Source: a plasmid. From it: DNA of 64,000 bases. The position numbers were made by a program, and so were the translations under genes. The stretch lies in assembly GCF_056746865.1 (NCBI RefSeq), contig NZ_JBWKMP010000003.1, one strand, 5' to 3'. Each line of letters starts with the position of its first letter. Positions within the stretch are counted from its first letter, which is position 1. Below the pieces are notes generated by a model, which ran no database searches, had not been told where the DNA came from, and saw only the letters and a program-made list of their open reading frames with translations. Below are positions 11,274 through 55,025 of this stretch, piece by piece.

Positions 11274-11286
11274 GCTAAAAGCTAGC

Positions 11287-11472: not shown

Positions 11473-12435
11473 GTGAGTATTTTAAATTCAGTTTCAGTTA
11501 CTTTCAACACTTCTGAGTATAAAAACAACACTGAATACCACAAAAAAATCAAAGGTCATCAGTTGAGTTTTTTTGCTCGTCATAGCGGTTTTCTTTCCCC
11601 TTCACATAGCGCCATTATTGCCGAGTTCGCCAACCTGGCCGGAGCTACCGATGAATACATGATCCGTCGCTCATATGCGGATATGTCCGAGATTACAGGA
11701 CGCAGTATTTCTACTGTGCGCCGGGCATTTGCCGAAGCGACGAAGTGCGGAATGCTTGTTAAACAGCATCAGGTAGCGAATAACAATGCTCAGGTGTGTA
11801 ACGTGTACCGGTTTACAACACAATTTCTCCACTTCATTCATGTAGCAATGGAGATAGGGAGTAAGCAGGGCATCAAATTTGCCAACGCCACAAAACTGGT
11901 TAAGCAGTTGATTTCAAAGGTTCGTTATTTTTTTGAAACTGGGAACCCCCTGTTCAAATTGAACAAGTCCCCCCATGTTCAAAATGAACAGCCAATAGAA
12001 AATAAGAGTCACTCTATAGCCAAAAGAAGAGAAAGATCATGCGCGGTTCAGCCAAAGGCTTCACCAGCAGATAGTTCTCAAGCGGATAATGGGGGGCTGG
12101 ATAAAAAACCAGTAATCAGGGAAGAACATACCAACCACTGCCTGGCGGCGGCAAAAGCGAGAGCTGCAAAGCGTCGTTCAGATGAGGGGCACGCAAAACG
12201 GCAGGCTCTGTATCGTACCGCTGAAAAGCTGGCAAAAAAATTTGCATGGATACGTAGTGCCGCTACAGCAGTGAATAAGCCTAAACAATCCAGTGCCCTG
12301 GATTTCTCAATGGATTATTCTGGCTCCCAGGGGTGTGCAACCATTTGTGAAGCCTTTGACCTGATGAAACAGCGTGGCTATCGGTCTGAATTTGACCGGG
12401 AAGACTGGTCAATTCCGGAGGGCTTTCGGGGATGA
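11473..12435 (+). CDS. Winged-helix DNA-binding protein, candidate RepL-type lytic replication initiator
   Basis: GTG start, 320 aa. wHTH-like segment MSEITGRSISTVRRAFAEATKCGMLV. Operator upstream (as with P1 Op53-kilA-repL) and internal palindromic repeats. Confidence 0.4.
   Translation: MSILNSVSVTFNTSEYKNNTEYHKKIKGHQLSFFARHSGFLSPSHSAIIAEFANLAGATDEYMIRRSYADMSEITGRSISTVRRAFAEATKCGMLVKQHQVANNNAQVCNVYRFTTQFLHFIHVAMEIGSKQGIKFANATKLVKQLISKVRYFFETGNPLFKLNKSPHVQNEQPIENKSHSIAKRRERSCAVQPKASPADSSQADNGGLDKKPVIREEHTNHCLAAAKARAAKRRSDEGHAKRQALYRTAEKLAKKFAWIRSAATAVNKPKQSSALDFSMDYSGSQGCATICEAFDLMKQRGYRSEFDREDWSIPEGFRG
11951..11990. repeat. Two tandem palindromes TGTTCAAATTGAACA / TGTTCAAAATGAACA, each preceded by a C-run
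   Basis: At 11951-11965 and 11976-11990, inside the RepL-like ORF. Candidate origin or protein-binding repeats. Confidence 0.5.
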
Positions 12436-12492
12436 TGTTGCGATTGACTGTACAATAACCGTGCGGCGGGAATTTCATCGCTCGAAAATGTA

Positions 12493-12521
12493 TGTTAGGA
12501 AATTAAATTGATGTTTCTAAT
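12493..12521. promoter_or_regulatory. Inverted operator pair TGTTAGGAAATTAA-a-TTGATGTTTCTAAT
   Basis: Bivalent operator upstream of immI-like module 1, analogous to P1 Op51. Confidence 0.6.
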
Positions 12522-12724
12522 CAAGAATGTATGATTTACATTGTCACTAAAAAACAGCATTTGATAAAAATTCTGTTGATCTTTCTAATGTTCAGGCTTA
12601 TATTCATGCCGTCGTAGCAAATTCTGCGACCAGGTTTGACAGCCTGAATACTTACGCGGACAACCGCACATTTCCGATATTGCGGTATTTTTGTGTCCGT
12701 AAAACCACGTTACGCCCGAATTAT

Positions 12725-12799
12725 GGTGGGGCGTGATGGGGAGGCTTCGGCCTGCTGGTTTCGTAAGTGCCAGTCTGTCAACCCTGTCACGTCCTGCCA
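12725..12799 (+). ncRNA. c4: C4-type antisense immunity RNA, copy 1
   Basis: A 14-17 bp terminal helix (GGGGCGTGATGGGG / CCCTGTCACGTCCT with four G.U pairs) is followed by GCCA. Inside are a UUCG hairpin, a loop containing TCGTAAGT (b') and unpaired CTGTCAA (a'). These complement ACTTACGA (12833-12840, overlapping the icd SD) and TTGACAG (12805-12811). Confidence 0.65.
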
Positions 12800-12850
12800 C
12801 CTGTTTGACAGCGGGTCGCAGGTTGTTTATCAACTTACGAGGCCGTAACT

Positions 12851-13075
12851 ATGGTTAATGCCAATCATTGCTCACGTCCAGAATTCATCTGGCGTTTCCA
12901 CTCCCTGCAAAAACATTGTGATCACTTCGCAATTGCCGCAACTGAAAAAGAAGCCCGTTCTCTGATCCCTGATCAGTATGGCGTTCTCACTGGTCGTTTC
13001 TCTACTTCCCCACAACCAAACACTAATCCCTGGTATCGCAATATTACCAATCCCGGCATTGCGGAGGCTCACTGA
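12851..13075 (+). CDS. icd: Icd-like protein (host cell-division inhibitor family), copy 1
   Basis: 74 aa with the FIWRF..AATEKEARS motif typical of Icd-like proteins. TGATG overlap with the antirepressor gene, as in P1 icd-ant. Confidence 0.7.
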   Translation: MVNANHCSRPEFIWRFHSLQKHCDHFAIAATEKEARSLIPDQYGVLTGRFSTSPQPNTNPWYRNITNPGIAEAH

Positions 13076-13782
13076 TGGATATCTGCATTCTCGAAAAACT
13101 ATCAATGACCAGCATTGAGATTGCGGAGCTGGTGGGAAGTCAACACTCTGACGTTAAACGTAGTATTGAGCGTATGGTTGCTCGAAGCATTATCCGAAAA
13201 CCGCCAATGGCTGTTTTCGAAAAAATCAATAACTTAGGATTGCGTCGTGGCGTTGAGGCTTACGTCTTCGAAGGCGAGCAAGGCAAACGAGACAGCATTA
13301 TTGTCGTTGCGCAGCTCTCTCCCGAATTCACCGCCCGGCTGGTGGACCGCTGGCGCGAACTGGAAGAACAAGTACGCCAGCCGTTGACCGAAATAGAGAT
13401 GATCGCTGCAATGGCTGCGAATGCAGTTCAGCAGCAAAAGCGGCTTCATGCTGTTGAGTCAAAGGTTAGCCAGGTCGCTGAAACCGTCGAGCAGATCAAG
13501 AAAGGCAACATACCAGAAGGCTACATTGGCTACCGCCAACTGGCGGCGAAATGCGGCCTGACTGAAGCCAAATGCCGTAACCTGGTCAACGCTTACCGGA
13601 TCCCCACAGATACGCATGAGTTTTTGACGCCAGAGGGGGTATTGTCGCGTCGTACTATTGTGGCCTTATCTCCCTTCATGAATGCCTTTACCCTGATGAT
13701 GTCGGAGGCTGAACACCGAGGAAAACGCTGGTATCACCCAAGGATGGGGCAATTCCAGGTAATCGGTTGGGGAGGCGAGTGA
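13075..13782 (+). CDS. Rha-family regulatory protein / antirepressor (Ant position), copy 1
   Basis: 235 aa. The N-terminus MTSIEIAELVGSQHSDVKRSIERM.. is the Rha domain pattern. Translationally coupled to icd. Confidence 0.75.
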   Translation: MDICILEKLSMTSIEIAELVGSQHSDVKRSIERMVARSIIRKPPMAVFEKINNLGLRRGVEAYVFEGEQGKRDSIIVVAQLSPEFTARLVDRWRELEEQVRQPLTEIEMIAAMAANAVQQQKRLHAVESKVSQVAETVEQIKKGNIPEGYIGYRQLAAKCGLTEAKCRNLVNAYRIPTDTHEFLTPEGVLSRRTIVALSPFMNAFTLMMSEAEHRGKRWYHPRMGQFQVIGWGGE

Positions 13783-13979
13783 TGGACATCATGCAGGCGG
13801 TAAAAAAAATCGGGGAAGGACAGGCTGAAGTGTGCCGCCGTAAAGCATGGAGTGTTGGTGTATGGGTCTGGCCTGATAATAGCTCTACTACTGGATGGTT
13901 TTGTATTAATGGATACCAGATCCGGGAAGTCGATTTATCGACGGCGGATGCAGTCGGTAATGATTGGATCGTAACTTGA
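13782..13979 (+). CDS. Small DUF2829 (Tad2-like)-type protein
   Basis: 65 aa from the ATG overlapping the Rha stop. Pattern ..RRKAWSVGVWVWP....DWIVT matches the C-terminus fused to the Rha paralogue at 55025-55966. Confidence 0.6.
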   Translation: MDIMQAVKKIGEGQAEVCRRKAWSVGVWVWPDNSSTTGWFCINGYQIREVDLSTADAVGNDWIVT

Positions 13980-13987
13980 AGTGTGAT

Positions 13988-14012
13988 GCCCCGGCTTGGC
14001 CGGGGCTTTTTT
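13988..14012. terminator. Bidirectional intrinsic terminator
   Basis: GCCCCGGC..GCCGGGGC followed by TTTTTT, between convergent genes. Confidence 0.75.
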
Positions 14013-14496
14013 ATGCCTCATTAGTTGAGGTTGCTGCGTCTCCGACTGGTAACAGAGCTGTATTGCGTGGTTCGCCAGCAGGCCAGCGATAGCCAGACAC
14101 TCTTGATGTTGGGAATGCGCGAATATTAACAGCATCCCCCTGGTTCCCACCCAAGACAAGCAGATCGCCATTGGCGCGGTGTCCGACAACAAAGCCTACA
14201 TGCCCACCGCCTGCGCGAGTAAATACAACGATACATCCGTATGCCGGTGTATCTAATTTCTCGCCCCAATCCAGATAGGATTTTGCCGACTCAAATCTTG
14301 TTGAGCGGATACCTACACGTTCCAGCATTGCACCAACAAATGCAGCGCACCACGGCGTTTCGTCGTCTTTAATTCCGCTGCGCTTAATATCCCGCCAGAA
14401 CTGAACGATCTCAGGATTGTGTTTCGCTCCTTTTATTTCGGTGACTCCAATATTTTTACGGGCCTCAATAAGCCAGCGAGGTTCAATGTTTGCCAT
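14011..14496 (-). CDS. NlpC/P60-CHAP-like peptidoglycan hydrolase (TIGR02594-type)
   Basis: 161 aa. ..ETPWCAAFV..(catalytic Cys context)..GGHVGFVVG.. is typical of this cell-wall hydrolase family. Confidence 0.7.
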   Translation of the reverse strand: MANIEPRWLIEARKNIGVTEIKGAKHNPEIVQFWRDIKRSGIKDDETPWCAAFVGAMLERVGIRSTRFESAKSYLDWGEKLDTPAYGCIVVFTRAGGGHVGFVVGHRANGDLLVLGGNQGDAVNIRAFPTSRVSGYRWPAGEPRNTALLPVGDAATSTNEA

Positions 14497-14633: not shown

Positions 14634-17600
14634 TTGAGGGGGCTTCCTTTGGACAAAATAATTGATTCAATTAGCCAGGCCACCAGCATTGGGGCGCTGA
14701 TTGAAATTGTTAGTCGGTTGCATAAACCGCGAGCTGTAGTGACCTTTGGCGTTAAGAAAGTCGATGGCGTCAGTATTCAGAAAACACGCCGGACAGCAAA
14801 CAACGCCGCAGTAGATCTTCTTAATTCCCTTCCGCCCGGCTTCGATGGAGCGAAATTAACTGACGAACAGCGTCAGATTCTTGCCGGGTATACCGGTGAA
14901 GGCGGCCTGACAGATGGTGAGGGCAGCCAATACGAATACTATACGCCACAGTTTATGGCAGAAGGTATATGGGATCTCTTCGGCGACTACGGTATTGATA
15001 GCGGTCACGTACTGGAACCGTCAGCAGGCACAGGTATTTTCCAGGAGACAAAACGGCAGGGCATGATAATGACCAGCGCCGAACTGTCTCCGATCTCCGG
15101 TCGAATAAACCAGCTTTTGCACCCGGAAGATGATGTGAATATCGGGGCGTTTGAGGCGCTGGCGGCGAAAGATGCAATGTATGACCACGCAGTTGGTAAC
15201 GTACCGTTTGGCGAAGGGCGTTCCGGCGTCGCCGGGCTTGATCCGGCATATGCAAACGAGAAGAACGTTGGCAATTATTTTGTGCTGCGCACGATCGACA
15301 AGGTTAAGCCTGGTGGGCTAATTGTATTGGTGGTGCCGAATGGCATGACCGATGGTACGAAATACAAAAAATTGCGCGATAAAGTCAGCCGTAAAGCGGA
15401 ATTTTTGGGCGCGCATCGTATGCCTTCTGGTACGTTCAGCGAATCCGGTACAGATACCGTGGTGGACGTATGGGTATTGCGTAAACACCCGGAAACCTTC
15501 CTGGAGATGATCCCCGACACGGATGATGCAACGCTCAAATCGGCAAACGTCCTTTGGGATACCTTCCTCAAAGGGAAATGGTTTACAACCGAAGGGAAGC
15601 GATTTGTTTACGGCGACATGGAACGCACCAGCTTCCGCAATACCCTGGTGGTGAAAAAGGACGGTCGTGTATCCAATGAGTCGATGAAAACCGCGTTATC
15701 ACGCCGCTTTGAAAGCCGTATTAATTGGGATTTGCTCGGAGTAACTACCCAGGCATGGCAGGGCGCAAAAGTAGGGGATAAGCGTCTTGTAGGCGGTATC
15801 TGGCATGAGTTTGATGGCCTGAAATGGGTTAAGGACACGACAACCAAATCCTCCGCGCTTGATGTAAGTCGATATGGTGTTTCGACGTTTGGCGATCTGC
15901 AGATCGCGTTCCAGTCAACAAACGGGATTCTGGCTTTGTCATGGGACCAGATATCGGCGATCGCGTCCGACTATCCATCGGTTGTCAGTGATGAAGTGGC
16001 AGCAATGATTCGCTTTGCTGGCAAACAGCGAGAAAAAGACAGGGAGCGCGTTATGCGCGGTGCGTTGATAGGGCAGTTGATCAACAAGGCACTTGATTTG
16101 CGTAACCTGGGGGTGAACGTTGATGACAAACTGGCAGATGCATCCCGCCTGGCGGCAGCAGAAGTTGCGAAGTATGGACCACCGCACGCGATTAAGCTGA
16201 ATGGGCTTGCTGAAGCTGGCGCTAAAAACTGGATGACGTTCACTGGCAATGTGAAACAGGATGGTTCCACTTCTGACCTTCTGGCAGGGCGACTTGATGT
16301 AACGGATGGTGCTGCCGGTATTGACTTTACACGTCCGGAACAAGTGATAGCACATCTTTTCAGTGATGTAGCCCTTAATCCTATAACGCTGGGCGACTTT
16401 CGTGAGGCGTTTGCTGGTGAACTGCCAGAGGACGACGACGCGGCCCTTGAATACCTGGCGAAATTTGATGATATCGCTATTGATGGGTATGGCTGCCTGC
16501 TGCCGATGGACCGCGCCACCAGCGGCGATATTGTAACCAAAACAGCATTGCTGGTGGGCTGGCGTGATGCATCAACAGGTGAGCAGAAAGCGAACTTTGA
16601 GCGTCAGTTGGCGAAAATCGAAGAGAAACGCATTTTCACGCCACTAAATAAAGTCACCGTTAATCTGAACGCCCGCTGGCTGGATCGCCGCTTGATAAAA
16701 GAGTTCCTGGCAGAGCAGGGCTATGACGAGTTTAAGTACACTGAACCTGATCTGAAGGTCGTCGATGGCATTCTGGTATCTCCGGACGATTACGAAGGTA
16801 AGGACGGGGTATTTACCGGCTATCAGCTACGAACCGTAAACGGCAAAAACGGGAATGAGTTCAAGAAGGCCAACAATAAAGACGGCTTCCTGAACCAGTT
16901 AGAAAACTACCTGAACGGTGTTAAACCGCGTGGGCAGAACGCTAACGAGTACCTGGATAAAATTGCTCAACTGGAAGTTAGCTTTAACGACTGGTTACGC
17001 ACCCACCCGCAGGCGGATCAGATAGCCCGTGACTATAACGACGCATTCAATGGCTTCATTCCGTTCACGCACTCTAACGCACCGCTTGGCCTGGAAGGGA
17101 TTAGTGGAAAGCGCATTCCTCTGACTTATCAGAATGAAGAAGTTCGTCGCTTGTCAGAAGATGGGCGCGGCATCATGGGATTTGGTACCGGGCTGGGTAA
17201 AACCACGACCGCGCTTGCGCTTGAGGCGTATAACTTCGAAACAGGTCGTACTAAACGCACGTGTATTGTTGTTCCGAAGGCGGTTTATCAGAACTGGTAT
17301 CACGAGGCACAGAGCTTCTACAGTGCTGATGCCTTCGCCAATATGATGTTTATCGGTCTGGATGAAGTTCGTGATGACAGCGGAAATATTCTGACCGCTC
17401 CGGTGCTTGATGAAAATGGCGAACCCCGCCTCGACAGTAACGGGCAGCCTCTTACCAGAAATGTTGTGAAAGAGTCCGCCAGCGCCGTTATCGTTCAGCG
17501 CATGAACATGATCCCGTCGTCAAATTGGCGAACGGTCATCATGACAAAAGAACAATTCGCGTCTATCCCGCTACGAGAAAAAACCATCGAGGAGAACTCA

Positions 17601-20600
17601 CAGCAAGCTGTCTTTAATGCTGTGGAAATGGGGCGTCTTGACCTGGCGTCTGGTAAACACCGTGATGCGCAGAAGAAGAACAAGATTAAGGATCAGGCCG
17701 CGAATACCGGTACAACGAAGAAGCAGAATATCCCGTACTTTGAGGATATGAACTTCGATAGCGTGATAGCCGACGAGGGGCATAACTACCGCAACTCCTT
17801 TAATGCCGGGCGTGAAGCGGGACAACTGGCATATTTGCCTAACCCGGCAGTATCCAAGATGGCCCGCGACATGGCTGTAAAAGCTGCGTACATGATGAAA
17901 CGCAACAACGGGCGTGGTGTAGTCATGCTGACGGCAACACCGCTGGTGAACAGTCCGATTGATGCCTTCAACATGCTGTCTACTGTCATTCCGCAGGAAG
18001 AGTGGATGCGCATGGGCATCATTACGCCTGATGATTTCGTTCGTGTGTTTGGTAAAACAGCCACAGTTCAGGTCCAGAAAATTTCCGGGGAAGTGGAAGA
18101 GAAGCAGGGGCTGGTTGGCTTCCAGAACCTTGATGGCCTGCGTGGTATTTTCCATCGCTGGACTACTCTGAAGACTGCTGCGGACGTCGGGGCGACGGTT
18201 AAAATCCCTGATATTGTCGAGAATACCTTGCAGATCCCGATGACAGGGGAGCAGGAGGCTGCTTATGAAGAGCTTCGTAAGCGTGCACAGGAGTTAAGTA
18301 GTAAAGATGCGCTGACGGTTGATGAAAACGGGCATATCACAAACGAAAAACCGGATGATTTCATCTTCTCCATCATCCGCGACATGGATAAGGTTGCTAT
18401 AGATCCGGATCTGTATGCCAGTGCGATTACATTCCAGTTCCCCGTTGAGCTTGCAGACAAGGTAAAAGCTATTGCTGATGCCCTGCCAAAAGTAGCTGGC
18501 GGTAAAGTGGCAGATGATGCAGACGAGGCCGAAGAAGACGGCGCTGGTGGGCTGGTTAGTACGCGCACCAGTAAGGTAGTGAAGACCACCTTTAGTGAAC
18601 ATCCGGCGCATGTTGAAATACGTGCCAGCATTGAACTGGAAGCTGAAATACTGAAGGCCATTGCTGCCGCCGGGATTGATATGCAGCAGGTATCACACCC
18701 AATCCCGCCGAAGTATGCCGCGCTGATCGAAAACCTTCGTGAAGGTCTGAAGAACGGTAAACAAATTGTCTTCATTGATGAAAAAGCCCAGCACCAGAAG
18801 CTGCGCCGTATTATCGCCAGTGCACTGCAAATGCCGGAGCAGGAGATAGGCATTATCAATGCGACGACCGTTAGCCAGGCTGGCGGCATCAAGCTGAAGA
18901 AGGTGAATAAGCCGACTGAACCTACTCCGAATAAAAACGGTGAATACAAAGAAGGGGCATGGGAAACCTACTACAGCAAACTTGCCCAATATGAGGATTA
19001 TCTCTCAGCTAAAAATGATGCTGGCCTTGAGGGTATGGAAGGCATTGCCGCCGACTATAACGAAGGGCGCACGCGCATAATTATCTGTAACAAGAAGGCT
19101 GAAGTAGGTATTAACCTGCATATCGGGACAACCGATATCCACCACCTGACACTACCCTGGACACCAGCCAGTATCGACCAACGAAATGGGCGCGGTGCGC
19201 GCGTAGGTTCACCGCAAGAGAAGGTCAATGTTCACTACTATTGTGGCAAAGGCACATTCGACGACTTCCGTCTGGATACGCTGAAACGTAAGAAAGACTG
19301 GATCAAGATGGTAATGACCTCCGACATGTCAGAGATCGCCAATGGTGATGCGGATGATGCTGATGAACGCGCCATTATGCTGGCGGCAAACCCGGAAGAA
19401 CGCCGCGCAATCATGGCTCGCCAGGCGCAAGAGCGTGAAGAACGTCTGAAACTGAAAGCACAGCGCGAGGCCAACAATGCTCTCGATATCTACCTGAAAG
19501 CGGCAAACGCCGCTGGAAAAGATATCGGCATGATGGAGACAGAACTGAAAAGCGCGATGGAACAGATAGAGTATTACCAGCGAAATCTTGACGACCTGAT
19601 AAAAGCGGGTACGAACAGGAATGGGCAAAAATTCGCGCTTGAGCAGTTGAGTAGCTACAGAAAACGTGCGCGGGTGCTGCGGTTTGCGATCACCAGGGCA
19701 AAAGACGCGGATACCATAATGAAACGCTCTCGTGGTGATGTGGAGCGCGCTATTAAGTCTGGTGTGCTGGATATCAGTATCGATGTTATTCAGAACCCAC
19801 AGGAATATATGCGCACTGACAAGAATATCCTGTTGCATAAAGGTAGTTATTACCGTGCAGTCATTGATGATCGCGAAACAACAGCGATTGTCCGGGTGGA
19901 AAAAATTGACGGTGAAAAAGCACAATACCTCTGCCGTATCGCCTGGCTGGATAGAGCAAGTCGTTACGCTCGATCACCGGGGTCAATCGTTACATTGCCG
20001 TTTGACTCTGTGATTGAAGCGGTAACTTTTGAAGAGGGGGTAGCTGAATCGCGCGCAACGGCTGCGCGTGGTGTTCAGTGCCACCAGCTATCAACAATAC
20101 TTACTCGCGATCAGTTCTATGATGCTATTCGCAATGGGGTAATGAATGTTATTGCTGGTAAACCTGGTAATGCATGGGGCGGTGGGTCAGCTATTAAATA
20201 CTGGGCATATCGCACAGATGATGGTCAGATCGCGCTGTCATCGGCCTATGATGGCGTGATAGGCCAAAAAATCGGGCGAGCATCGGATATAGCACCTGAA
20301 CGATGGATATATCCAGATGGCAACGATGAGGCGCTGAAGCGTGAAGTGGCAAAAATACAAGCCAGTGATAACCCGCTGAATATCGTGGACGGCGAGGGAT
20401 TCCTCCAGGCATTGTATGGGTATGATTACATCCAGGGAATGCAGGCATGGGGCGCACAGGCAACGATGGATGATGTTGTCCAGGAGTTCGAAAACTGGAT
20501 GGCTGGGCGTGGTCTGTCAGGTCGTTCGCTTAATAAAGTCACTTCTGAAGATATTCTTAGCTTGTTCCGCAAACCGTCCGGAGAAGGTCTGGAATCATTC

Positions 20601-21485
20601 TGGAGGACCGTGCTGGCATACCGTTTATTCAAGGGCAGAATGAAAGCCTTTAGCAATATCGATGATATTGAACGGATGTTTAATCAGGTCAAGATCGCCA
20701 AAATTAAGACGAAGATCGAAAAAACACGTTCTGCGCTGGTGGCCTGGCGCGATGCATTGTTTGAGCAATATAAATCACTCAGTGATGCAGATGGATGGGC
20801 GGCATTGGAACAGTTGGCGAATAATGGGGTAGATGGAGCGAAACTCGCCATAGTCCAGGCTGATAACCCCCTGGAATCACCGGCAGCACAGTGGATTAAG
20901 GTGGGGGCTGTCATCAATGCATTTGATGAAAAACACATTAGTAAGGACGATTTTGCTGATGCTGTTTCTGTTAATCGCCTGGTAGAAATGGCTACCCGCC
21001 GCGCCCGTGAGTTGAAAGACGGTGACTATGTGAATGAGTTGCCGGATGCGCTCAAATCAGCAACGTGGCAAGACTATGTATCGCTGAAAAACGGCGGGGC
21101 CACCGAATCAGAGATCGCGGAAAGGCTTGAACAGGCTGAAAGCAAAAGAGAAGAGCAGGCGGCAGTGGCTGAAGCAAGAGCTGATGAAGCGGCGAATGAT
21201 GACTATATCATTGTGGTTAATGATAAGCCGATTCGCGCTAAGGCGCGTGTTCGCGGGCGCTGGTGGAGTGTCAGCGAGGACGTCGGTGCGGTTTATCTCA
21301 TTGCCGACCAACCTGGTTCCTCGACAATACGGAACGCCAAAGACGCGATTAAGAAGATTGGCGGGCGTTTCTGGAATTTTGAAGCAAACCCGGTTGCTGA
21401 TGTGAACTTTGACCGTCCTGCATGGATGGTATCTACGCGTTACTCGTTAGATGAACTGCGTAAAATAATCGCCGATGCGGCCTAA
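14634..21485 (+). CDS. darB: DarB-like antirestriction protein: N6-adenine methyltransferase fused to a DExH helicase
   Basis: 2283 aa (P1 DarB is about 2255 aa). MTase motifs VLEPSAGTGIF and GNVPFG. Helicase motifs GFGTGLGKTT, DEGHNYRN and QRNGRGARVG. The start may be the TTG at 14649 (SD GAGGGGG). Confidence 0.9.
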   Translation: MRGLPLDKIIDSISQATSIGALIEIVSRLHKPRAVVTFGVKKVDGVSIQKTRRTANNAAVDLLNSLPPGFDGAKLTDEQRQILAGYTGEGGLTDGEGSQYEYYTPQFMAEGIWDLFGDYGIDSGHVLEPSAGTGIFQETKRQGMIMTSAELSPISGRINQLLHPEDDVNIGAFEALAAKDAMYDHAVGNVPFGEGRSGVAGLDPAYANEKNVGNYFVLRTIDKVKPGGLIVLVVPNGMTDGTKYKKLRDKVSRKAEFLGAHRMPSGTFSESGTDTVVDVWVLRKHPETFLEMIPDTDDATLKSANVLWDTFLKGKWFTTEGKRFVYGDMERTSFRNTLVVKKDGRVSNESMKTALSRRFESRINWDLLGVTTQAWQGAKVGDKRLVGGIWHEFDGLKWVKDTTTKSSALDVSRYGVSTFGDLQIAFQSTNGILALSWDQISAIASDYPSVVSDEVAAMIRFAGKQREKDRERVMRGALIGQLINKALDLRNLGVNVDDKLADASRLAAAEVAKYGPPHAIKLNGLAEAGAKNWMTFTGNVKQDGSTSDLLAGRLDVTDGAAGIDFTRPEQVIAHLFSDVALNPITLGDFREAFAGELPEDDDAALEYLAKFDDIAIDGYGCLLPMDRATSGDIVTKTALLVGWRDASTGEQKANFERQLAKIEEKRIFTPLNKVTVNLNARWLDRRLIKEFLAEQGYDEFKYTEPDLKVVDGILVSPDDYEGKDGVFTGYQLRTVNGKNGNEFKKANNKDGFLNQLENYLNGVKPRGQNANEYLDKIAQLEVSFNDWLRTHPQADQIARDYNDAFNGFIPFTHSNAPLGLEGISGKRIPLTYQNEEVRRLSEDGRGIMGFGTGLGKTTTALALEAYNFETGRTKRTCIVVPKAVYQNWYHEAQSFYSADAFANMMFIGLDEVRDDSGNILTAPVLDENGEPRLDSNGQPLTRNVVKESASAVIVQRMNMIPSSNWRTVIMTKEQFASIPLREKTIEENSQQAVFNAVEMGRLDLASGKHRDAQKKNKIKDQAANTGTTKKQNIPYFEDMNFDSVIADEGHNYRNSFNAGREAGQLAYLPNPAVSKMARDMAVKAAYMMKRNNGRGVVMLTATPLVNSPIDAFNMLSTVIPQEEWMRMGIITPDDFVRVFGKTATVQVQKISGEVEEKQGLVGFQNLDGLRGIFHRWTTLKTAADVGATVKIPDIVENTLQIPMTGEQEAAYEELRKRAQELSSKDALTVDENGHITNEKPDDFIFSIIRDMDKVAIDPDLYASAITFQFPVELADKVKAIADALPKVAGGKVADDADEAEEDGAGGLVSTRTSKVVKTTFSEHPAHVEIRASIELEAEILKAIAAAGIDMQQVSHPIPPKYAALIENLREGLKNGKQIVFIDEKAQHQKLRRIIASALQMPEQEIGIINATTVSQAGGIKLKKVNKPTEPTPNKNGEYKEGAWETYYSKLAQYEDYLSAKNDAGLEGMEGIAADYNEGRTRIIICNKKAEVGINLHIGTTDIHHLTLPWTPASIDQRNGRGARVGSPQEKVNVHYYCGKGTFDDFRLDTLKRKKDWIKMVMTSDMSEIANGDADDADERAIMLAANPEERRAIMARQAQEREERLKLKAQREANNALDIYLKAANAAGKDIGMMETELKSAMEQIEYYQRNLDDLIKAGTNRNGQKFALEQLSSYRKRARVLRFAITRAKDADTIMKRSRGDVERAIKSGVLDISIDVIQNPQEYMRTDKNILLHKGSYYRAVIDDRETTAIVRVEKIDGEKAQYLCRIAWLDRASRYARSPGSIVTLPFDSVIEAVTFEEGVAESRATAARGVQCHQLSTILTRDQFYDAIRNGVMNVIAGKPGNAWGGGSAIKYWAYRTDDGQIALSSAYDGVIGQKIGRASDIAPERWIYPDGNDEALKREVAKIQASDNPLNIVDGEGFLQALYGYDYIQGMQAWGAQATMDDVVQEFENWMAGRGLSGRSLNKVTSEDILSLFRKPSGEGLESFWRTVLAYRLFKGRMKAFSNIDDIERMFNQVKIAKIKTKIEKTRSALVAWRDALFEQYKSLSDADGWAALEQLANNGVDGAKLAIVQADNPLESPAAQWIKVGAVINAFDEKHISKDDFADAVSVNRLVEMATRRARELKDGDYVNELPDALKSATWQDYVSLKNGGATESEIAERLEQAESKREEQAAVAEARADEAANDDYIIVVNDKPIRAKARVRGRWWSVSEDVGAVYLIADQPGSSTIRNAKDAIKKIGGRFWNFEANPVADVNFDRPAWMVSTRYSLDELRKIIADAA

Positions 21486-26039: not shown

Positions 26040-26114
26040 GATGGTGTAGCTCAGTGGTAGAGCAGTTGGCTGTTAACCAACTGGTCGGTGGTTCGAATCC
26101 ATCCACCATCGCCA
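26040..26114 (+). tRNA. tRNA-Asn (anticodon GTT)
   Basis: Full cloverleaf: acceptor GATGGTG/CACCATC, D stem GCTC/GAGC, anticodon stem GTTGG/CCAAC with loop CTGTTAA, T loop TTCGAAT, encoded CCA. Confidence 0.95.
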
Positions 26115-26116
26115 AT

Positions 26117-26192
26117 GCCGGTTTAGCTCAGTTGGTAGAGCGCCTGCCTTGTAAGCAGGATGTCAGCGGTTCGAGTCCGTTAACCGGCACCA
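26117..26192 (+). tRNA. tRNA-Thr (anticodon TGT)
   Basis: Acceptor GCCGGTT/AACCGGC, anticodon stem CCTGC/GCAGG with loop CTTGTAA, T loop TTCGAGT, encoded CCA. Confidence 0.95.
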
Positions 26193-26896: not shown

Positions 26897-26972
26897 GGCC
26901 CTTTAGCTCAGTGGTTAGAGCGGGCGACTCATAATCGCACGATCACCGGTTCAAGTCCGGTAGGGGCCACCA
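26897..26972 (+). tRNA. tRNA with anticodon CAT, ileX-like (tRNA-Ile2 via lysidine, or Met)
   Basis: Very similar to my recollection of E. coli ileX (GGCCC(C/T)TTAGCTCAGTGGTTAGAGC..GGCGACTCATAATCGC..GGTTCAAGTCC..GGGGCCACCA). P1 also encodes such a tRNA. Confidence 0.9.
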
Positions 26973-31786: not shown

Positions 31787-32824
31787 TTACCAGAGTTTTG
31801 CCGCGTACATCGTTTGTGTGAATGTGTACCCATAGCGTTCTTCAACGCTTTTACCGTATTTTTTCCTGGCTTCAGTAAGGCGGATGCCTGTCAGGTCATC
31901 GCCGGAGGCAATCATAACTTCCAGTAGTTCCAGGTCCATTTTATCCAGCCTTGCCATTGCATCTTTAGCCTCTTGAATTTTCCGGCTAACGATCTGGTGT
32001 ATGGCTGGATCGGCTTCGGCCAGCATTTTATCTGATTTGTTTTTTAAACTCTGATTGCGGATATCAATGTTTCTCAGGATATATGACTTCACGACGTAGC
32101 TTGGCTGCTGCTTTTCCAGATCACGAACCCGATAAAGGTCAAATTCGCCGAGAAGTCCGCACGGAAGCGGTTTAATGCCAGTGTAAATGGTAAGGGTGCG
32201 GCGCTCACCAACGTTGTTAACAACGGGAATCTCTGTGTTTGCTTTTTTTGCAAAGATCAGCGCACCGTGCGTACCCACTCTGAAGCGTGAAAGTCCATTG
32301 TTGCCCTCAATATTGGTGGTAATCACCACATCGGTATAACCTTCTTTTCTTGCGCGGTATACCTCGCCCTCACGTTCAGCGGCGAAGAATCTGCGTTCTT
32401 CTTCAAGCGCACCGACAACCTGTGAAAATATCCTGTTTTTCATGCTTTTCTTTATAGTTTTATCGTATTTTTTCAGCAGGTCTTCGCGCGTAAATGTTCT
32501 CGTTGTGGTTGCGCTTTGCATAACGATGTGCGTACTCTGATTAGTATCCTCAACAATGAATGGGATCGGTAAATAAACCGACTCAACAATGTTTGAGGCT
32601 TTGTCATCATCCTTGCGACACAGATCAACAAAGGCTTTCCATTCGGCTATGCATTTTTCAGCTTCTTCTAATACAGCCGGATCATGTGTTAATGCAACAT
32701 GGCGAAATTCCTCGCCAACATAACTGGTATCATGGAAAACAGAGTTTGCGACCACCAGCTCTTTCCACCTTTCAGCGGTTTGCAGGAACCGTTTGTACTC
32801 ATTCTCGATCGACTTCTTACTCAT
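31787..32824 (-). CDS. Candidate primary immunity repressor (c1 position)
   Basis: ATG at 32824 (SD AGGA) gives 345 aa. It lies between pacB and the rox/dre locus, exactly where P1 c1 lies, with operator half-sites in its upstream region. I saw no sequence similarity to P1 C1. Confidence 0.4.
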   Translation of the reverse strand: MSKKSIENEYKRFLQTAERWKELVVANSVFHDTSYVGEEFRHVALTHDPAVLEEAEKCIAEWKAFVDLCRKDDDKASNIVESVYLPIPFIVEDTNQSTHIVMQSATTTRTFTREDLLKKYDKTIKKSMKNRIFSQVVGALEEERRFFAAEREGEVYRARKEGYTDVVITTNIEGNNGLSRFRVGTHGALIFAKKANTEIPVVNNVGERRTLTIYTGIKPLPCGLLGEFDLYRVRDLEKQQPSYVVKSYILRNIDIRNQSLKNKSDKMLAEADPAIHQIVSRKIQEAKDAMARLDKMDLELLEVMIASGDDLTGIRLTEARKKYGKSVEERYGYTFTQTMYAAKLW

Positions 32825-33204: not shown

Positions 33205-34233
33205 ATGGGTGAACTAGTTATCTCCGGCGGTTCTGGTGGTTTTCTGCGCGATATTGGCACCGAATACCAGGAAGCTGCAAAAAACTTTATGCAGTTCATG
33301 AACGACCAGGGAGCTTATGCTCCAAATACGCTTCGAGATCTCCGTCTGGTGTTTCATTCCTGGGCGCGGTGGTGTAATTCGCGCCAGCGCCCCTGGTTCC
33401 CGATTACGCCGGAAATGGCCCGCGAGTATCTTCTCCAGTTGCATGAGGCCGATCTGGCCTCGACCACCATTGATAAGCACTATGCCATGCTTAACATGCT
33501 GCTTTCGCAATGTGGCCTCCCGCCGCTGTCGGACGATAAAAGTGTGTCTCTGGCCATGCGGCGCATCCGGCGCGAAGCGGCAACGGAAAAAGGCGAGCGA
33601 ACAGGCCAGGCTATACCGTTGCGGTGGGATGATCTGAAATTGCTCGACGTGTTGCTGTCCCGTTCCGAGCGGCTGGTGGACCTGCGCAATCGGGCGTTTC
33701 TCTTCGTGGCATACAATACCCTGATGCGTATGTCAGAAATCTCGCGCATCCGCGTCGGAGATCTGGACCAAACAGGTGACACTGTAACGCTGCATATTTC
33801 ACACACGAAGACCATCACGACCGCCGCCGGACTTGATAAGGTGCTTTCTCGTTACACTACCGCCGTACTGAACGACTGGCTGGAGGTGTCCGGACTTCGA
33901 GAACATCCGGACGCGGTGCTATTCCCGCCAATACACCGCAGTAATAAGGCCAGAATCACGACAACGCCCCTTACTGCACCTGCAATGGAGAAAATATTCA
34001 GCGATGCCTGGGGGTTGCTGAACAAACGAGATGCCACGCCGAACAAAGGAAGATACCGGACGTGGACAGGCCATAGTGCGCGTGTTGGTGCGGCAATTGA
34101 TATGGCTGAGAAACAGGTGTCAATGGTCGAGATCATGCAGGAAGGTACATGGAAAAAGCCCGAAACACTTATGCGATATTTGCGCCGTAGCGGGGCATCC
34201 GTTGGTGCAAATAGTCGCCTGATGGACTCATAA
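33205..34233 (+). CDS. dre: Dre-type (Cre-like) tyrosine site-specific recombinase
   Basis: 342 aa, collinear with P1 Cre (..HSWARWC..WFP.., ..AYNTLMRMSEISRIRV.., ..WTGHSARVGAA.DMA..). Near-identical to my recollection of D6 Dre. Confidence 0.92.
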   Translation: MGELVISGGSGGFLRDIGTEYQEAAKNFMQFMNDQGAYAPNTLRDLRLVFHSWARWCNSRQRPWFPITPEMAREYLLQLHEADLASTTIDKHYAMLNMLLSQCGLPPLSDDKSVSLAMRRIRREAATEKGERTGQAIPLRWDDLKLLDVLLSRSERLVDLRNRAFLFVAYNTLMRMSEISRIRVGDLDQTGDTVTLHISHTKTITTAAGLDKVLSRYTTAVLNDWLEVSGLREHPDAVLFPPIHRSNKARITTTPLTAPAMEKIFSDAWGLLNKRDATPNKGRYRTWTGHSARVGAAIDMAEKQVSMVEIMQEGTWKKPETLMRYLRRSGASVGANSRLMDS

Positions 34234-54496: not shown

Positions 54497-54601
54497 GAAA
54501 ACACACAGTTGCGCCCTGGCATTATCGTGGGGTATATTTCTACGGCACCTTAGAAAAACGGGTGCCGGGATTGGAACCCCGGATAATGTCAAAGGCGACA
54601 C

Positions 54602-54624
54602 AGACGCCGAACGCGTCTTTTTTT
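54602..54624 (+). terminator. Intrinsic terminator between the a1/b1 sites and c4 copy 2
   Basis: AGACGC-CGAAC-GCGTCT followed by TTTTTTT. Confidence 0.75.
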
Positions 54625-54673
54625 GTGTCATGCCATCGCACAGCCATACTTAGCGTTTAGCTCAGAGATCAAT

Positions 54674-54753
54674 GGTAGTGCTGGCTGGGCTGCCGAAAGG
54701 CAGGCCGGTTCCCTTTGACGCCGGTAGTTCCAACCCAGTCAGTGCTACCGCCA
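54674..54753 (+). ncRNA. c4: C4-type antisense immunity RNA, copy 2
   Basis: A 16-bp terminal helix GGTAGTGCTGGCTGGG / CCCAGTCAGTGCTACC (three G.U pairs) is followed by GCCA. Inside are a GAAA-tetraloop hairpin, a loop with CCTTTGAC (b') and unpaired GTTCCAA (a'). These complement GTCAAAGG (54791-54798, overlapping the icd SD) and TTGGAAC (54760-54766). It is 80 nt, compared with about 77 nt for P1 C4. Confidence 0.7.
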
Positions 54754-54809
54754 TTGAGATTGGAACCTCACGCGGTAGCTCCTTAACTTAGTCAAAGGAG
54801 GCTGCCAAT

Positions 54810-55025
54810 ATGGCTACTATCCCTACCCCAACTCATTCTGAATTTATCTGGCGTTTCTATTCCTGCCAAAAACACCTTTATATCTGCGTAATGGCTGCTA
54901 CCGAAGCAGAGGCGCGCTCATACCTTCCCGAAGAACCCTGCATTTTTGCTGCTCGCTTCACTCTTGATGCGATGGAGATCCTCAATTACTGGAATCTGCC
55001 AATGAACTGCGTGGAGGTGCACTGA
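54810..55025 (+). CDS. icd: Icd-like protein, copy 2
   Basis: 71 aa with EFIWRFYSCQKH..AATEAEARS. TGATG overlap with the downstream antirepressor gene. Confidence 0.7.
   Translation: MATIPTPTHSEFIWRFYSCQKHLYICVMAATEAEARSYLPEEPCIFAARFTLDAMEILNYWNLPMNCVEVH

What the first reader, a model, noticed from the sequence alone, without database searches (positions are those of the whole stretch)
12493..13979. Complete C4-type antisense immunity module (immI-like copy 1) readable directly from the sequence
The layout reproduces the P1/P7 immI paradigm, in which a1 b1 - c4 - a2 b2 - icd - ant are co-transcribed and C4 RNA masks the icd ribosome-binding site. An operator pair lies at 12493-12521. Site a1 (TTGACAG) is at 12636-12642 and b1 (ACTTACG) is at 12650-12656. 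The folded RNA at 12725-12799 exposes a' (CTGTCAA, 12775-12781) and b' (TCGTAAGT, 12761-12768). Site a2 (TTGACAG) is at 12805-12811. Site b2 (ACTTACGA) is at 12833-12840 and overlaps the GAGG Shine-Dalgarno of icd, whose ATG is at 12851. The terminal helix has four or more G.U pairs, which makes it strand-specific. It is followed by GCCA, consistent with the RNase P processing known for C4.
Basis: partly seen in the sequence, partly recalled or inferred. Interest (0 to 1): 0.6.

Follow-up and report, generated by a model that had tools for sequence, protein, structure and literature searches.

The report
Known P1-type C4 antisense immunity module
This stretch is a complete, intact copy of the well-studied phage P1 "immI" switch, in which a small antisense RNA (C4) blocks translation of a cell-division inhibitor and an anti-repressor; here it sits in a D6-like plasmid prophage, so it is an ordinary, already catalogued element, though it recognises a different target sequence from P1 and P7.

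Summary
The a-b site signature occurs exactly three times in 64 kb (a1b1, C4, a2b2) against 0.00 expected. Rfam calls C4 (69.6 bits, threshold 45) and c4-a1b1 (55.2 bits, threshold 46.7) above threshold. The window is a D6-like P1-related phage-plasmid, 99.8% identical to a deposited E. coli plasmid.

The C4 scaffold and its 5' flank are identical to P1. 15 of the 25 differences from P1 in 240 nt fall in b1, b' and b2, and they compensate each other. In 65 distinct related modules from IMG/VR, all a'/a1/a2 and b'/b1/b2 pairs are kept (100% of cells) through seven b types and two a types.

Corrections:
- The operator is a D6-type 17-mer, not P1's, and its partner half is weak.
- The mature RNA probably ends at 12801, giving 77 nt.
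- The helix is followed by ACC; GCC is inside it.
- The "ant" gene is Rha/Roi-type, not homologous to P1 Ant1/2, and is split from its C-terminal domain.
- The a1b1 leader is an IsrK homologue with its own terminator.

The module is already known in kind and in this phage group, so interest is low.

The parts
12493..12509 (+). 17-bp operator-like site TGTTAGGAAATTAAATT, the probable binding site of the D6-type C1-like repressor. A weak inverted partner lies at 12506-12522.
   Evidence: One mismatch to TGTTAGAAAATTAAWTT. This family has 15 sites in the window against 0.64 expected. D6 carries the perfect consensus at the same place. The site overlaps the -35 of the upstream promoter, as Oc4/Op51 does in P1.
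12508..12535 (+). Upstream sigma-70-like promoter (-35 TTGATG, 16 nt spacer, -10 TATGAT). It is positionally equivalent to P1 P2c4 (P51a), the operator-controlled promoter.
   Evidence: Promoter scan; topology compared with the P1 annotation. Function is inferred.
12576..12604 (+). Downstream sigma-70-like promoter (-35 TTGATC, 17 nt spacer, -10 TATATT), homologous to P1 P1c4 (P51b).
   Evidence: Promoter scan. It aligns column for column with the annotated P1 -35 and -10.
12611..12692 (+). a1b1 leader, an IsrK-like three-hairpin RNA. a1 (12636-12642) is in the loop of hairpin 2 and b1 (12650-12656) is single-stranded. A terminator-like hairpin (12663-12686) is followed by U5 (12688-12692).
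   Evidence: Rfam c4-a1b1 at 12598-12650, 55.2 bits. isrK RF01394 matches full length at 45.5 bits, E = 1e-8, below its threshold of 50. Fold -31.1 kcal/mol, z = -3.86. a1 and b1 covary perfectly with a' and b'.
12725..12801 (+). C4 antisense RNA, predicted mature 77-nt form. b' is at 12761-12768 in the loop of hairpin 2, and a' is at 12775-12781 in the linker.
   Evidence: Rfam C4, 69.6 bits. The scaffold and 13 nt of 5' flank are identical to the annotated 77-nt P1 C4. Fold z = -5.17 on the + strand only.
12805..12811 (+). a2 target site, TTGACAG.
   Evidence: 7/7 complementary to a'. 100% paired in 65 variants, with 2 compensatory columns.
12833..12842 (+). b2 target site ACTTACGA, overlapping the icd Shine-Dalgarno GAGG (12839-12842).
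   Evidence: 8/8 complementary to b'. 100% paired in 65 variants, and 6 of 8 columns are compensatory. Cognate duplex energy is -10.1 kcal/mol, against -3.4 or weaker when this C4 b' loop is paired with the b2 sites of P1, P7 and copy 2.
12851..13075 (+). icd homologue (74 aa).
   Evidence: 59% identical to P1 Icd. NCBIfam phage_ICD_like 40 bits, cutoff 25. phrog_1426.
13075..13782 (+). Rha/Roi-type 'anti-repressor' gene (235 aa). Its start overlaps the icd stop (TGATG), and a GGAGG lies at 13062-13066.
   Evidence: Pfam Phage_pRha 31 bits. phrog_63 'anti-repressor Ant', E = 1e-45. No homology to P1 Ant1. 65% identical to the copy-2 protein.
13782..13979 (+). 65-aa ORF whose start overlaps the ant stop. 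It is a homologue of the C-terminal domain of the copy-2 Ant.
   Evidence: phrog_7385, E = 7e-46. The same family matches residues 252-312 of the 313-aa copy-2 Ant. Annotated as a separate ORF in D6.
13988..14012 (+). Intrinsic terminator that ends the operon.
   Evidence: 8 G-C pairs, 3-nt loop, T6 tail.

Best explanation
This is the immI secondary-immunity operon of a D6-like, P1-related plasmid prophage, and it works as in P1 and P7.

Transcription starts at two promoters. The upstream one is overlapped by an operator for the resident C1-like repressor. The transcript runs through an a1b1 leader, the c4 gene, the a2/b2 sites, icd, a Rha/Roi-type anti-repressor gene and a small ORF, and stops at the terminator at 13988.

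The 77-nt C4 RNA (12725-12801) is cut out of this transcript, with RNase P making the 5' end. It presents b' in a hairpin loop and a' in a single-stranded linker. These pair with b2 and a2 on other copies of the transcript. b2 covers the icd Shine-Dalgarno, so icd is not translated. Because ant starts on the icd stop codon, ant is not translated either. In P1, loss of icd translation also causes Rho-dependent termination before ant.

Specificity is set by the loop sequences. This copy has the P1-type a site but a different b site (CGUAAGU/ACUUACG). It should therefore be blind to the C4 RNAs of P1, P7 and the second module in the same genome, at least at the b site.

Shown here: the sequence anatomy, family membership, strand specificity, complementarity, and natural covariation of all four target sites.

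Inferred from P1/P7 experiments: processing, trans-repression, polarity, and anti-repressor activity.
For: - Rfam C4 and c4-a1b1 hits are above the gathering thresholds.
- The fold is strong on the + strand only.
- The a-b signature occurs three times against 0.00 expected.
- Alignment with the annotated P1 and P7 records places every feature at the homologous position. The C4 scaffold and 5' flank are identical to P1.
- 15 of the 25 differences from P1 in 12611-12850 lie in b1, b' and b2 and compensate each other.
- In 65 distinct modules recovered from IMG/VR with a scaffold-only pattern, the target sites were not constrained by the search. 100% of cells pair in b'-b2, a'-a2, b'-b1 and a'-a1. 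6 of 8 b'-b2 columns, 6 of 7 b'-b1 columns and 2 of 7 a columns carry double changes. Slid controls give 27-53% pairing.
- For this C4, the b' duplex is far stronger on its own b2 (-10.1 kcal/mol) than on the P1, P7 or copy-2 b2 sites (-3.4 or weaker); its a' duplex is the same on the P1 a2 site.
- Icd is 59% identical to P1 Icd. The icd stop and ant start overlap, preceded by GGAGG.
- The operator 17-mer family is enriched 15 against 0.64. Sites lie before repL, before the C1-like gene and before both immI modules.
- The module is conserved at 90-99.8% identity in more than 100 plasmids and in phage D6.
- The literature reports c4, icd and anti-repressor homologues in D6-like plasmids (PMC6799933). 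It also describes the P1 mechanism (PMC8198154; PMC12197685) and RNase P processing of pre-C4 (PMC3858429).
Against: - No expression, processing or repression data exist for this element or for D6. All function is by homology.
- The output protein is not homologous to P1 Ant1/2. Its anti-repressor activity against the very divergent C1-like repressor (21% identity to P1 C1) is only an annotation (phrog_63). Its relative Roi, from the HK97/HK022 phage group, is not established as an anti-repressor (my own knowledge).
- The right half of the operator pair is poor.
- The operator consensus was derived from this same window, so its enrichment statistic is somewhat circular.
- The IMG/VR loci are related sequences. 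The shuffle control therefore overstates significance, but the slid controls and the multiple independent pair types do not depend on that.
Confidence: 0.9

Rival explanations
1. The module is a three-RNA switch rather than a simple repressor-target pair. The a1b1 leader (12611-12692) would be released as an IsrK-like small RNA by termination at its own hairpin and U5 tract. It would then act as a decoy (anti-antisense) that titrates C4 and frees a2/b2, turning icd and ant on when promoter activity rises. This refines the main explanation and is compatible with it.
For: - The leader matches isrK RF01394 over its full length (45.5 bits, E = 1e-8). The match starts at the predicted transcription start and ends at the U-run.
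- It has a terminator-like hairpin followed by U5.
- a1 and b1 covary with a' and b' as strictly as a2 and b2 do, so pairing with C4 is under selection.
- Copy 2 of the same window has a bona fide isrK hit at 61.3 bits, upstream of its C4.
- Gifsy-1 IsrK exists as a 77-nt terminated form and as a read-through mRNA. In trans, it activates translation of the downstream orf45-anrP (PMC4825925).
- Competition of a1/b1 with a2/b2 was proposed in the original C4 paper, as quoted in the supplement of PMC2864571.
Against: - The isrK score is below Rfam's gathering threshold.
- The terminator hairpin is short (6 bp, 12-nt loop) and was not called by the terminator scan.
- The IsrK paper explains activation by a different pairing, IsrK with orf45 mRNA, without invoking C4.
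- No short leader RNA has been reported for P1, to my knowledge.
Confidence: 0.3
2. The regulatory RNA part works as in P1, but the regulated output is not an anti-repressor of the resident repressor. The Rha/Roi-type protein and its detached C-terminal domain could instead serve another purpose. Candidates are a lytic-growth regulator, or a weapon against repressors of competing phages, which might explain why the genome carries two modules.
For: - There is no homology to P1 Ant1/2.
- Pfam finds only Phage_pRha, barely above cutoff (31 against 29.9 bits).
- Part of the gene is 79.5% identical in DNA to roi of HK629-type lambdoid phages.
- No solved structure is related.
- Two paralogous copies, 65% identical, sit under orthogonal C4 RNAs in one genome.
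Against: - PHROG family 63 is annotated as anti-repressor Ant.
- The position after icd and the translational coupling are exactly those of P1 ant.
- In the isrK-orf45-anrP locus of Gifsy-1, which has the same gene order as copy 2, expression of AnrP raises antQ transcript levels, which is anti-repressor-like behaviour (PMC4825925). AnrP was not compared with the window's proteins.
Confidence: 0.25
3. The module is an inactive relic, or the C4-like fold is a chance or tRNA-like structure without regulatory function.
For: None beyond the absence of experimental data for this element.
Against: - All ORFs are intact. All six sites are perfectly complementary.
- The region is conserved at 90-99.8% identity in more than 100 plasmids.
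- Target sites covary perfectly across 65 variants.
- Rfam hits are above threshold.
- The site signature has a chance expectation of 0.00.
Confidence: 0.02

Closest known systems
Phage P1 immI operon (Oc4/Op51, P2c4, P1c4, a1 b1, c4, a2 b2, icd, ant1/ant2)
   Same: - The order of all RNA elements is the same.
- The 77-nt C4 scaffold and its 5' flank are identical.
- The a specificity is the same (CUGUCAA/UUGACAG).
- The P1c4 promoter is homologous.
- An operator overlaps the -35 of the upstream promoter.
- b2 lies over the icd Shine-Dalgarno.
- Icd is 59% identical.
- The icd stop overlaps the start of the next gene.
   Different: - The b specificity differs: CGUAAGU against CACUAAC, with b1 and b2 changed to match.
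- The operator sequence differs and P1-type operators are absent.
- The anti-repressor gene is Rha/Roi-type, not Ant1/Ant2. It is followed by a 65-aa ORF instead of kilA-repL.
- repL lies upstream, and there are no sim genes.
Phage P7 immI
   Same: Same scaffold and layout. P7 is the classical example of a change of C4 specificity by a few loop bases matched in the targets.
   Different: P7 differs from this copy in both a (CUGCUAA) and b (CACAAUC).
Phage D6 orf19-orf17 region (NC_050154) and D6-like plasmids such as pYU39_89
   Same: This is the same module. There is 1 difference in 12611-12850 and 90.9% identity over the whole interval. The icd, Roi-like Ant and small ORF are the same. The literature notes c4, icd and anti-repressor homologues, plus a second c4/icd region, in D6-like plasmids (PMC6799933).
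   Different: The D6 RefSeq record shown here annotates no c4 RNA, target sites, operator or promoters. The D6 genome paper itself could not be read.
Gifsy-1 isrK-orf45-anrP locus of Salmonella (IsrK RF01394)
   Same: The leader has the same three-hairpin architecture ending in a terminator. It is followed by a short ORF translationally coupled to a predicted anti-repressor-like gene.
   Different: The copy-1 leader scores below the isrK threshold. The published IsrK mechanism is activation by pairing with the orf45 mRNA, and C4 is not part of that model.
Second immI-like module of the same window (54545-55966)
   Same: Same layout. Icd-like proteins are 45% identical over the 51 aligned residues and Ant proteins 65% identical.
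   Different: - The a and b sequences are unrelated and predicted to be orthogonal.
- The C4 scaffold is different.
- The isrK hit is bona fide.
- Ant is fused to the domain that forms a separate ORF in copy 1.

Membership tests
C4 antisense RNA (Rfam RF01695) | Covariance-model score at or above the curated gathering threshold, full-length match. | tested here: met
   69.6 bits against 45, model positions 1-87 of 87, at 12719-12804 on the + strand.
C4 antisense RNA (Rfam RF01695) | Long terminal helix enclosing a stable tetraloop hairpin and a second hairpin, with the fold specific to one strand. | tested here: met
   The minimum-free-energy structure matches. The first hairpin has a UUCG loop. 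z = -5.17 on + against -0.66 on -. There are 5 G.U pairs in the 17-bp terminal helix.
c4-a1b1 motif (Rfam RF03163) | Two-hairpin leader with a1 in the second loop, immediately 5' of b1, scoring above threshold. | tested here: met
   55.2 bits against 46.7, at 12598-12650. The fold shows a1 in the loop of hairpin 2.
P1/P7 immI operon | a' and b' of C4 are complementary to a2 and b2 downstream and to a1 and b1 upstream. | tested here: met
   Complementarity is 7/7 (a'-a2), 8/8 (b'-b2), 7/7 (a'-a1) and 7/7 (b'-b1). Pairing is 100% maintained, with compensatory changes, in 65 variants.
P1/P7 immI operon | b2 overlaps the ribosome-binding site of icd. | tested here: met
   b2 is at 12833-12840, GAGG at 12839-12842 and the ATG at 12851.
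P1/P7 immI operon | icd homologue directly after the target sites, translationally coupled to the next gene. | tested here: met
   59% identity to P1 Icd. NF033153 is above its cutoff. TGATG overlap at 13073-13077.
P1/P7 immI operon | The regulated gene encodes the Ant1/Ant2 anti-repressor. | tested here: not met
   BLASTP against P1 Ant1 gives E = 0.21. The protein is Rha/Roi-type, phrog_63. The regulatory RNA part is therefore a member, but the cargo gene is a replacement.
P1/P7 immI operon | Transcription is controlled by the prophage C1 repressor at an operator overlapping the upstream promoter. | tested here: inconclusive
   No P1-type operator is present. A different 17-mer from a family of 15 sites (0.64 expected) overlaps the -35 at 12508. 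A distant C1 homologue is encoded at 31787-32821. Binding was not tested.
P1/P7 immI operon | C4 is excised from the operon transcript, with RNase P making the 5' end, to give a 77-nt RNA. | not testable with these tools
   Only indirect evidence: the 77-nt scaffold apart from the b' loop, and 13 nt of 5' flank, are identical to P1. RNase P processing of P1/P7 pre-C4 is reported in the literature.
P1/P7 immI operon | C4 represses icd and ant in trans, and its specificity defines heteroimmunity. | not testable with these tools
   Predicted duplex energies for this C4 favour its own b2 site over those of P1, P7 and copy 2. No experiment exists for the D6 type.
IsrK sRNA (Rfam RF01394) | Score at or above the gathering threshold. 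| tested here: not met
   45.5 bits against 50 at 12611-12692. The match is full length with E = 1e-8. This is a homologue-like resemblance, not a curated member.

The most novel reading that the evidence does not exclude
On one invariant C4 scaffold, P1- and D6-like phage-plasmids carry a combinatorial two-site address code. There are at least seven b-loop sequences (all differing by 2 nt or more) and two a-linker sequences, found in nearly all combinations. Each is matched perfectly at four target sites (a1, b1, a2, b2). The combinations are shuffled by recombination across at least three icd/backbone lineages.

The window's copy (a as in P1, b = CGUAAGU) would be one previously undescribed immunity specificity. 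D6-like genomes would run two mutually orthogonal modules side by side. The papers I could read describe only the P1/P7 pair.
Probability: 0.4. Interest if true: 0.45.

Novelty: already known. Interest (0 to 1): 0.2.

Why it matters
The finding itself matters little. It is a textbook regulatory module, detected by Rfam at curated thresholds, in a phage group where c4, icd and anti-repressor homologues have already been reported.

The side result is of moderate interest for phage-plasmid ecology and for designing orthogonal antisense regulators. A single scaffold carries many naturally orthogonal loop/target sets, and the a1/b1 leader sites covary as strictly as the functional a2/b2 sites. That covariation is the best comparative evidence that the long-unexplained a1/b1 sites are functional.

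Tried and rejected
- My first IMG/VR pattern had one N too many in the b' loop and found nothing. The corrected pattern was used.
- A search for the P1 C1 operator ATTGCTCTAATAAATTT found no site with up to 3 mismatches, so I dropped the idea that P1 C1 controls this copy.
- My first operator guess, TTGATNTTTCTAAT (the direct repeat at 12508 and 12576), is not enriched: 6 sites against 2.6 expected, and 4 of 100 shuffles reach that count. It mostly reflects two -35 regions.
- The 11-mer half-site with up to 2 mismatches is also not enriched (28 against 21). Only the 17-mer is.
- Pfam has no family for Icd, ORF3 or the C1-like protein.
- The PDB has no sequence relative of Ant.
- P1 Coi has no tblastn match in the window.
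- These papers are not held: the D6 genome paper, the P1 genome paper, Hartmann 1995, Citron and Schuster 1992 and Heinrich 1994. Statements about Rho-dependent polarity (Biere, Citron and Schuster 1992) and the 77-nt processed form therefore rest on my own knowledge, the P1 GenBank annotation and secondary citations.
- I did not use the capped large protein searches, structure prediction, or the metagenome and genome scans, because the identification did not need them.
Full report
**Source of the window.** The interval 12400-14020 is 99.8% identical over its whole length to E. coli plasmids NZ_CP104667.1 and NZ_AP019805.1. It is 90-96% identical to more than 100 further plasmids of about 90 kb from E. 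coli, E. marmotae and Salmonella. It is 90.9% identical to phage D6, and only the central 387 bases match P1, P7 and their relatives, at 85-90%. The window is therefore a D6-like, P1-related plasmid prophage. In the D6 RefSeq record the matching genes are annotated as repL-like, icd-like, 'anti-repressor Ant, similar to HK97 Roi', a hypothetical protein, a lysozyme-like protein and darB-like. No RNA or regulatory features are annotated there.

**Check of the observation.**
- a1 at 12636-12642 and b1 at 12650-12656
- b' at 12761-12768 and a' at 12775-12781
- a2 at 12805-12811 and b2 at 12833-12840
- GAGG at 12839-12842 and the ATG at 12851

The repeat finder returns the same pairs on its own, as perfect inverted repeats (I5, I8, I9) and direct repeats (D3, D4). 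The composite signature TTGACAG-N(4-30)-ACTTACG occurs three times in 64 kb: the a1b1 pair, the a2b2 pair, and C4 on the complementary strand. The expectation from 100 shuffles is 0.00.

The RNA at 12725-12799 folds into a 17-bp terminal helix, a UUCG-capped hairpin, and a second hairpin with b' in a 9-nt loop, followed by a 7-nt linker that is a'. Free energy is -42.8 kcal/mol with z = -5.17. The reverse strand gives -21.0 kcal/mol with z = -0.66. The terminal helix has 5 G.U pairs, which explains the strand asymmetry. Rfam finds C4 (RF01695, 69.6 bits, threshold 45, full length) at 12719-12804 and c4-a1b1 (RF03163, 55.2 bits, threshold 46.7) at 12598-12650.

**Projection of the P1 and P7 annotation.** I aligned the window with the annotated P1, P7 and D6 regions (annotations).
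- The annotated P1c4 (P51b) -35 and -10 align with TTGATC and TATATT at 12576 and 12599, which the promoter scan also calls.
- The 77-nt P1 C4 (GGUGGGG...GCCACC) corresponds to 12725-12801, and the 13 nt upstream are identical.

The 'GCCA' is really the last three helix pairs (GCC) plus the first base of an ACC tail. RNase P makes the 5' end of C4 in P1 and P7, where the precursor has been described as tRNA-like (PMC3858429, citing Hartmann et al. 1995). The argument for the same processing here is identity of the substrate, not the GCCA.

**Specificity.** Between 12611 and 12850 the window differs from P1 at 25 of 240 positions. Fifteen of these lie in b1, b' and b2. D6 differs at one position. 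The loop bases are:

| Element | b' | a' |
|---|---|---|
| Window and D6 | CGUAAGU | CUGUCAA |
| P1 | CACUAAC | CUGUCAA |
| P7 | CACAAUC | CUGCUAA |

b1 and b2 change in step with b'. Predicted duplex energies show the same thing. The window's b' pairs with its own b2 at -10.1 kcal/mol, but with the b2 of P1, P7 and copy 2 at only -3.4, -3.4 and -2.7. Its a' pairs equally well with the P1 a2 (-7.8).

**Natural covariation.** I scanned IMG/VR with a pattern that fixes only the C4 scaffold. It leaves the six b' bases and two a' bases free, and does not touch the target sites. Together with the loci found through the Icd protein and the reference phages, this gave 138 modules and 65 distinct sequences.

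They carry seven b' types: ACAATC as in P7, ACTAAC as in P1, GTAAGT as here, plus ATTCGT, ATGTAC, ACAAGT and TTGAAC. All differ from each other by at least 2 nt. There are two a' types, in nearly all combinations. b1, b2, a1 and a2 always match.

On the alignment (A2), the count of structure pairs gives these results:

| Measure | Result |
|---|---|
| Cells forming standard pairs: b'-b2, a'-a2, C4 internal helices | 100% |
| Cells forming standard pairs: b'-b1, a'-a1 | 100% |
| b'-b2 columns with changes on both sides | 6 of 8 |
| b'-b1 columns with changes on both sides | 6 of 7 |
| a columns with changes on both sides | 2 of 7 |
| Pairing when partners are slid 1-3 columns | 27-53% |

The specificity types are spread over three icd sequence backgrounds (D6-like, P1/P7-like and a third), so they move by recombination. 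This is strong comparative evidence that all four target sites, including the functionally unexplained a1 and b1, are selected to pair with C4.

**Operator and promoters.** The P1 C1 operator consensus has no match with up to 3 mismatches anywhere in the window. This is a one-mismatch member of a 17-mer family, TGTTAGAAAATTAAWTT, with 15 sites against 0.64 expected.
- Four of the loci are overlapping inverted pairs, built like P1 bivalent operators (for the P1 example).
- Single sites precede repL (11284), a gene whose product is a distant relative of P1 C1 (31787-32821), and the second immI module (53347/53360 and 53991). The C1-like gene shows 21% identity by tblastn at E = 1e-5, phrog_1678, and 24 bits to NF041318 against a cutoff of 500.
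- D6 has the perfect consensus at the homologous position.
- The site overlaps the -35 of a promoter-like pair (TTGATG at 12508, TATGAT at 12530). This is the same arrangement as Oc4 and P2c4 in P1.
- The inverted partner at 12506-12522 keeps only the TTTCTAA core.

The consensus was derived from this window, so the enrichment is partly circular, and binding is untested.

**Leader.** With permissive thresholds, 12611-12692 matches isrK (RF01394) over the full model at 45.5 bits (E = 1e-8, threshold 50). The match starts at the position expected for the transcription start of the P1c4-like promoter and ends in a hairpin followed by U5. Copy 2 of the window has an above-threshold isrK hit in the same position relative to its C4. 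In Gifsy-1, IsrK is made both as a 77-nt terminated RNA and as the 5' part of a read-through isrK-orf45-anrP mRNA. In trans, it activates translation of the coupled orf45-anrP pair (PMC4825925). The original C4 paper proposed that a1/b1 compete with a2/b2 for C4, as quoted in the supplement of PMC2864571. A released a1b1 leader acting as a C4 decoy is therefore a reasonable but untested refinement.

**Proteins.**
- Icd (12851-13075) is 59% identical to P1 Icd and meets the NCBIfam Icd-like cutoff.
- Its stop overlaps the start of the next gene (TGATG at 13073-13077), and a GGAGG lies 8 nt upstream.
- That gene (13075-13782) is not related to P1 Ant1/2 (E = 0.21). It has a Phage_pRha domain (31 bits, cutoff 29.9) and belongs to phrog_63 'anti-repressor Ant'. 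Part of its DNA is 79.5% identical to roi of HK629-type phages. It is 65% identical to the corresponding protein of copy 2. No relative has a solved structure.
- The third ORF (13782-13979, start overlapping the ant stop) belongs to phrog_7385. That family also matches residues 252-312 of the 313-aa copy-2 protein. So in copy 1 the C-terminal domain is a separate, coupled cistron.
- A strong intrinsic terminator follows at 13988-14006.

**Mechanism.** The most likely mechanism is the P1/P7 one.
1. Transcription runs from an operator-controlled promoter and a second promoter.
2. C4 is excised.
3. b' and a' pair with b2 and a2, occluding the icd ribosome-binding site.
4. The coupled downstream genes are therefore not translated. 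In P1 there is also Rho-dependent polarity (Biere, Citron and Schuster 1992, from my own knowledge).

The anatomy, family membership, complementarity and covariation are shown here. Processing, trans-action, polarity and the anti-repressor activity are inferred.

**Novelty.**
- The C4 family and the a1b1 motif are curated (PMC2864571).
- The P1/P7 mechanism is textbook.
- D6-like plasmids have been reported to carry c4, icd and anti-repressor homologues plus a second c4/icd region (PMC6799933).

The finding is therefore already known in kind and in this phage group. What I did not find in the papers I could read is the multiplicity of b types combined with the two a types. ImmI diversity is treated only at the gene level in PMC6906374.

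Noticed in passing
window 54545-55966: A second immI-like module. It has isrK (RF01394, 61.3 bits) at 54545-54623 with its own terminator, and C4 (77.1 bits) at 54668-54755. Its a/b sequences are unrelated to copy 1 (a' GUUCCAA, b' CCCUUUGAC) and are matched by its own a1/b1 and a2/b2. Then come an icd-like ORF at 54810-55025 and a 313-aa Rha/Roi-type Ant at 55025-55966. It is predicted to be orthogonal to copy 1.
   Followed up: partly
window 11284, 12493, 23451, 24696/24709, 24846, 28381/28394, 32836, 34232, 48271/48284, 53347/53360, 53991: A family of 17-mers, TGTTAGAAAATTAAWTT, with 15 sites against 0.64 expected. Four loci are overlapping inverted pairs. This is probably the operator set of the D6-type C1-like repressor. 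No P1-type C1 operator exists in the window.
   Followed up: partly
window 31787-32821 (- strand): A 344-aa protein (phrog_1678) that is only distantly related to the P1 C1 repressor: 21% identity and 24 bits to NF041318 against a cutoff of 500. Operator-like 17-mers lie just upstream. It is the likely primary repressor of this prophage. No Coi homologue was found by tblastn.
   Followed up: partly
window 13782-13979 versus 55025-55966: The 65-aa ORF after ant in copy 1 is homologous to the C-terminal domain (residues 252-312) of the copy-2 Ant. The gene is therefore split in one module and fused in the other. The split form is conserved in D6 and in many plasmids.
   Followed up: partly
loci L005-L148 (IMG/VR), alignment A2: On one C4 scaffold there are seven b-loop types and two a-linker types in nearly all combinations, each with perfectly matching a1, b1, a2 and b2. 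The types are distributed across three icd sequence backgrounds, which implies recombinational shuffling of immunity specificity.
   Followed up: yes
window 26040-26111, 26117-26189, 26897-26969: Three tRNA genes on the + strand (Rfam tRNA, 66-75 bits), as is usual for P1- and D6-like phages.
   Followed up: no
window 14634-21485: A 2283-aa ORF. Its counterpart in D6 is annotated as similar to P1 darB (a DEAD/DEAH helicase/methyltransferase anti-restriction protein). It lies immediately after a divergently oriented lysozyme-like gene at 14011-14496.
   Followed up: no
window 33205-34233: A 342-aa ORF next to the C1-like gene looks like a Cre-type tyrosine recombinase by eye. An operator-like 17-mer lies at its 3' end (34232). 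Not tested.
   Followed up: no
window 11473-12435: The RepL-like lytic replication gene lies directly upstream of immI, and an operator-like site precedes it at 11284. In P1, repL lies downstream of ant behind kilA, so the gene order around immI is rearranged relative to P1 and kilA is absent here.
   Followed up: no
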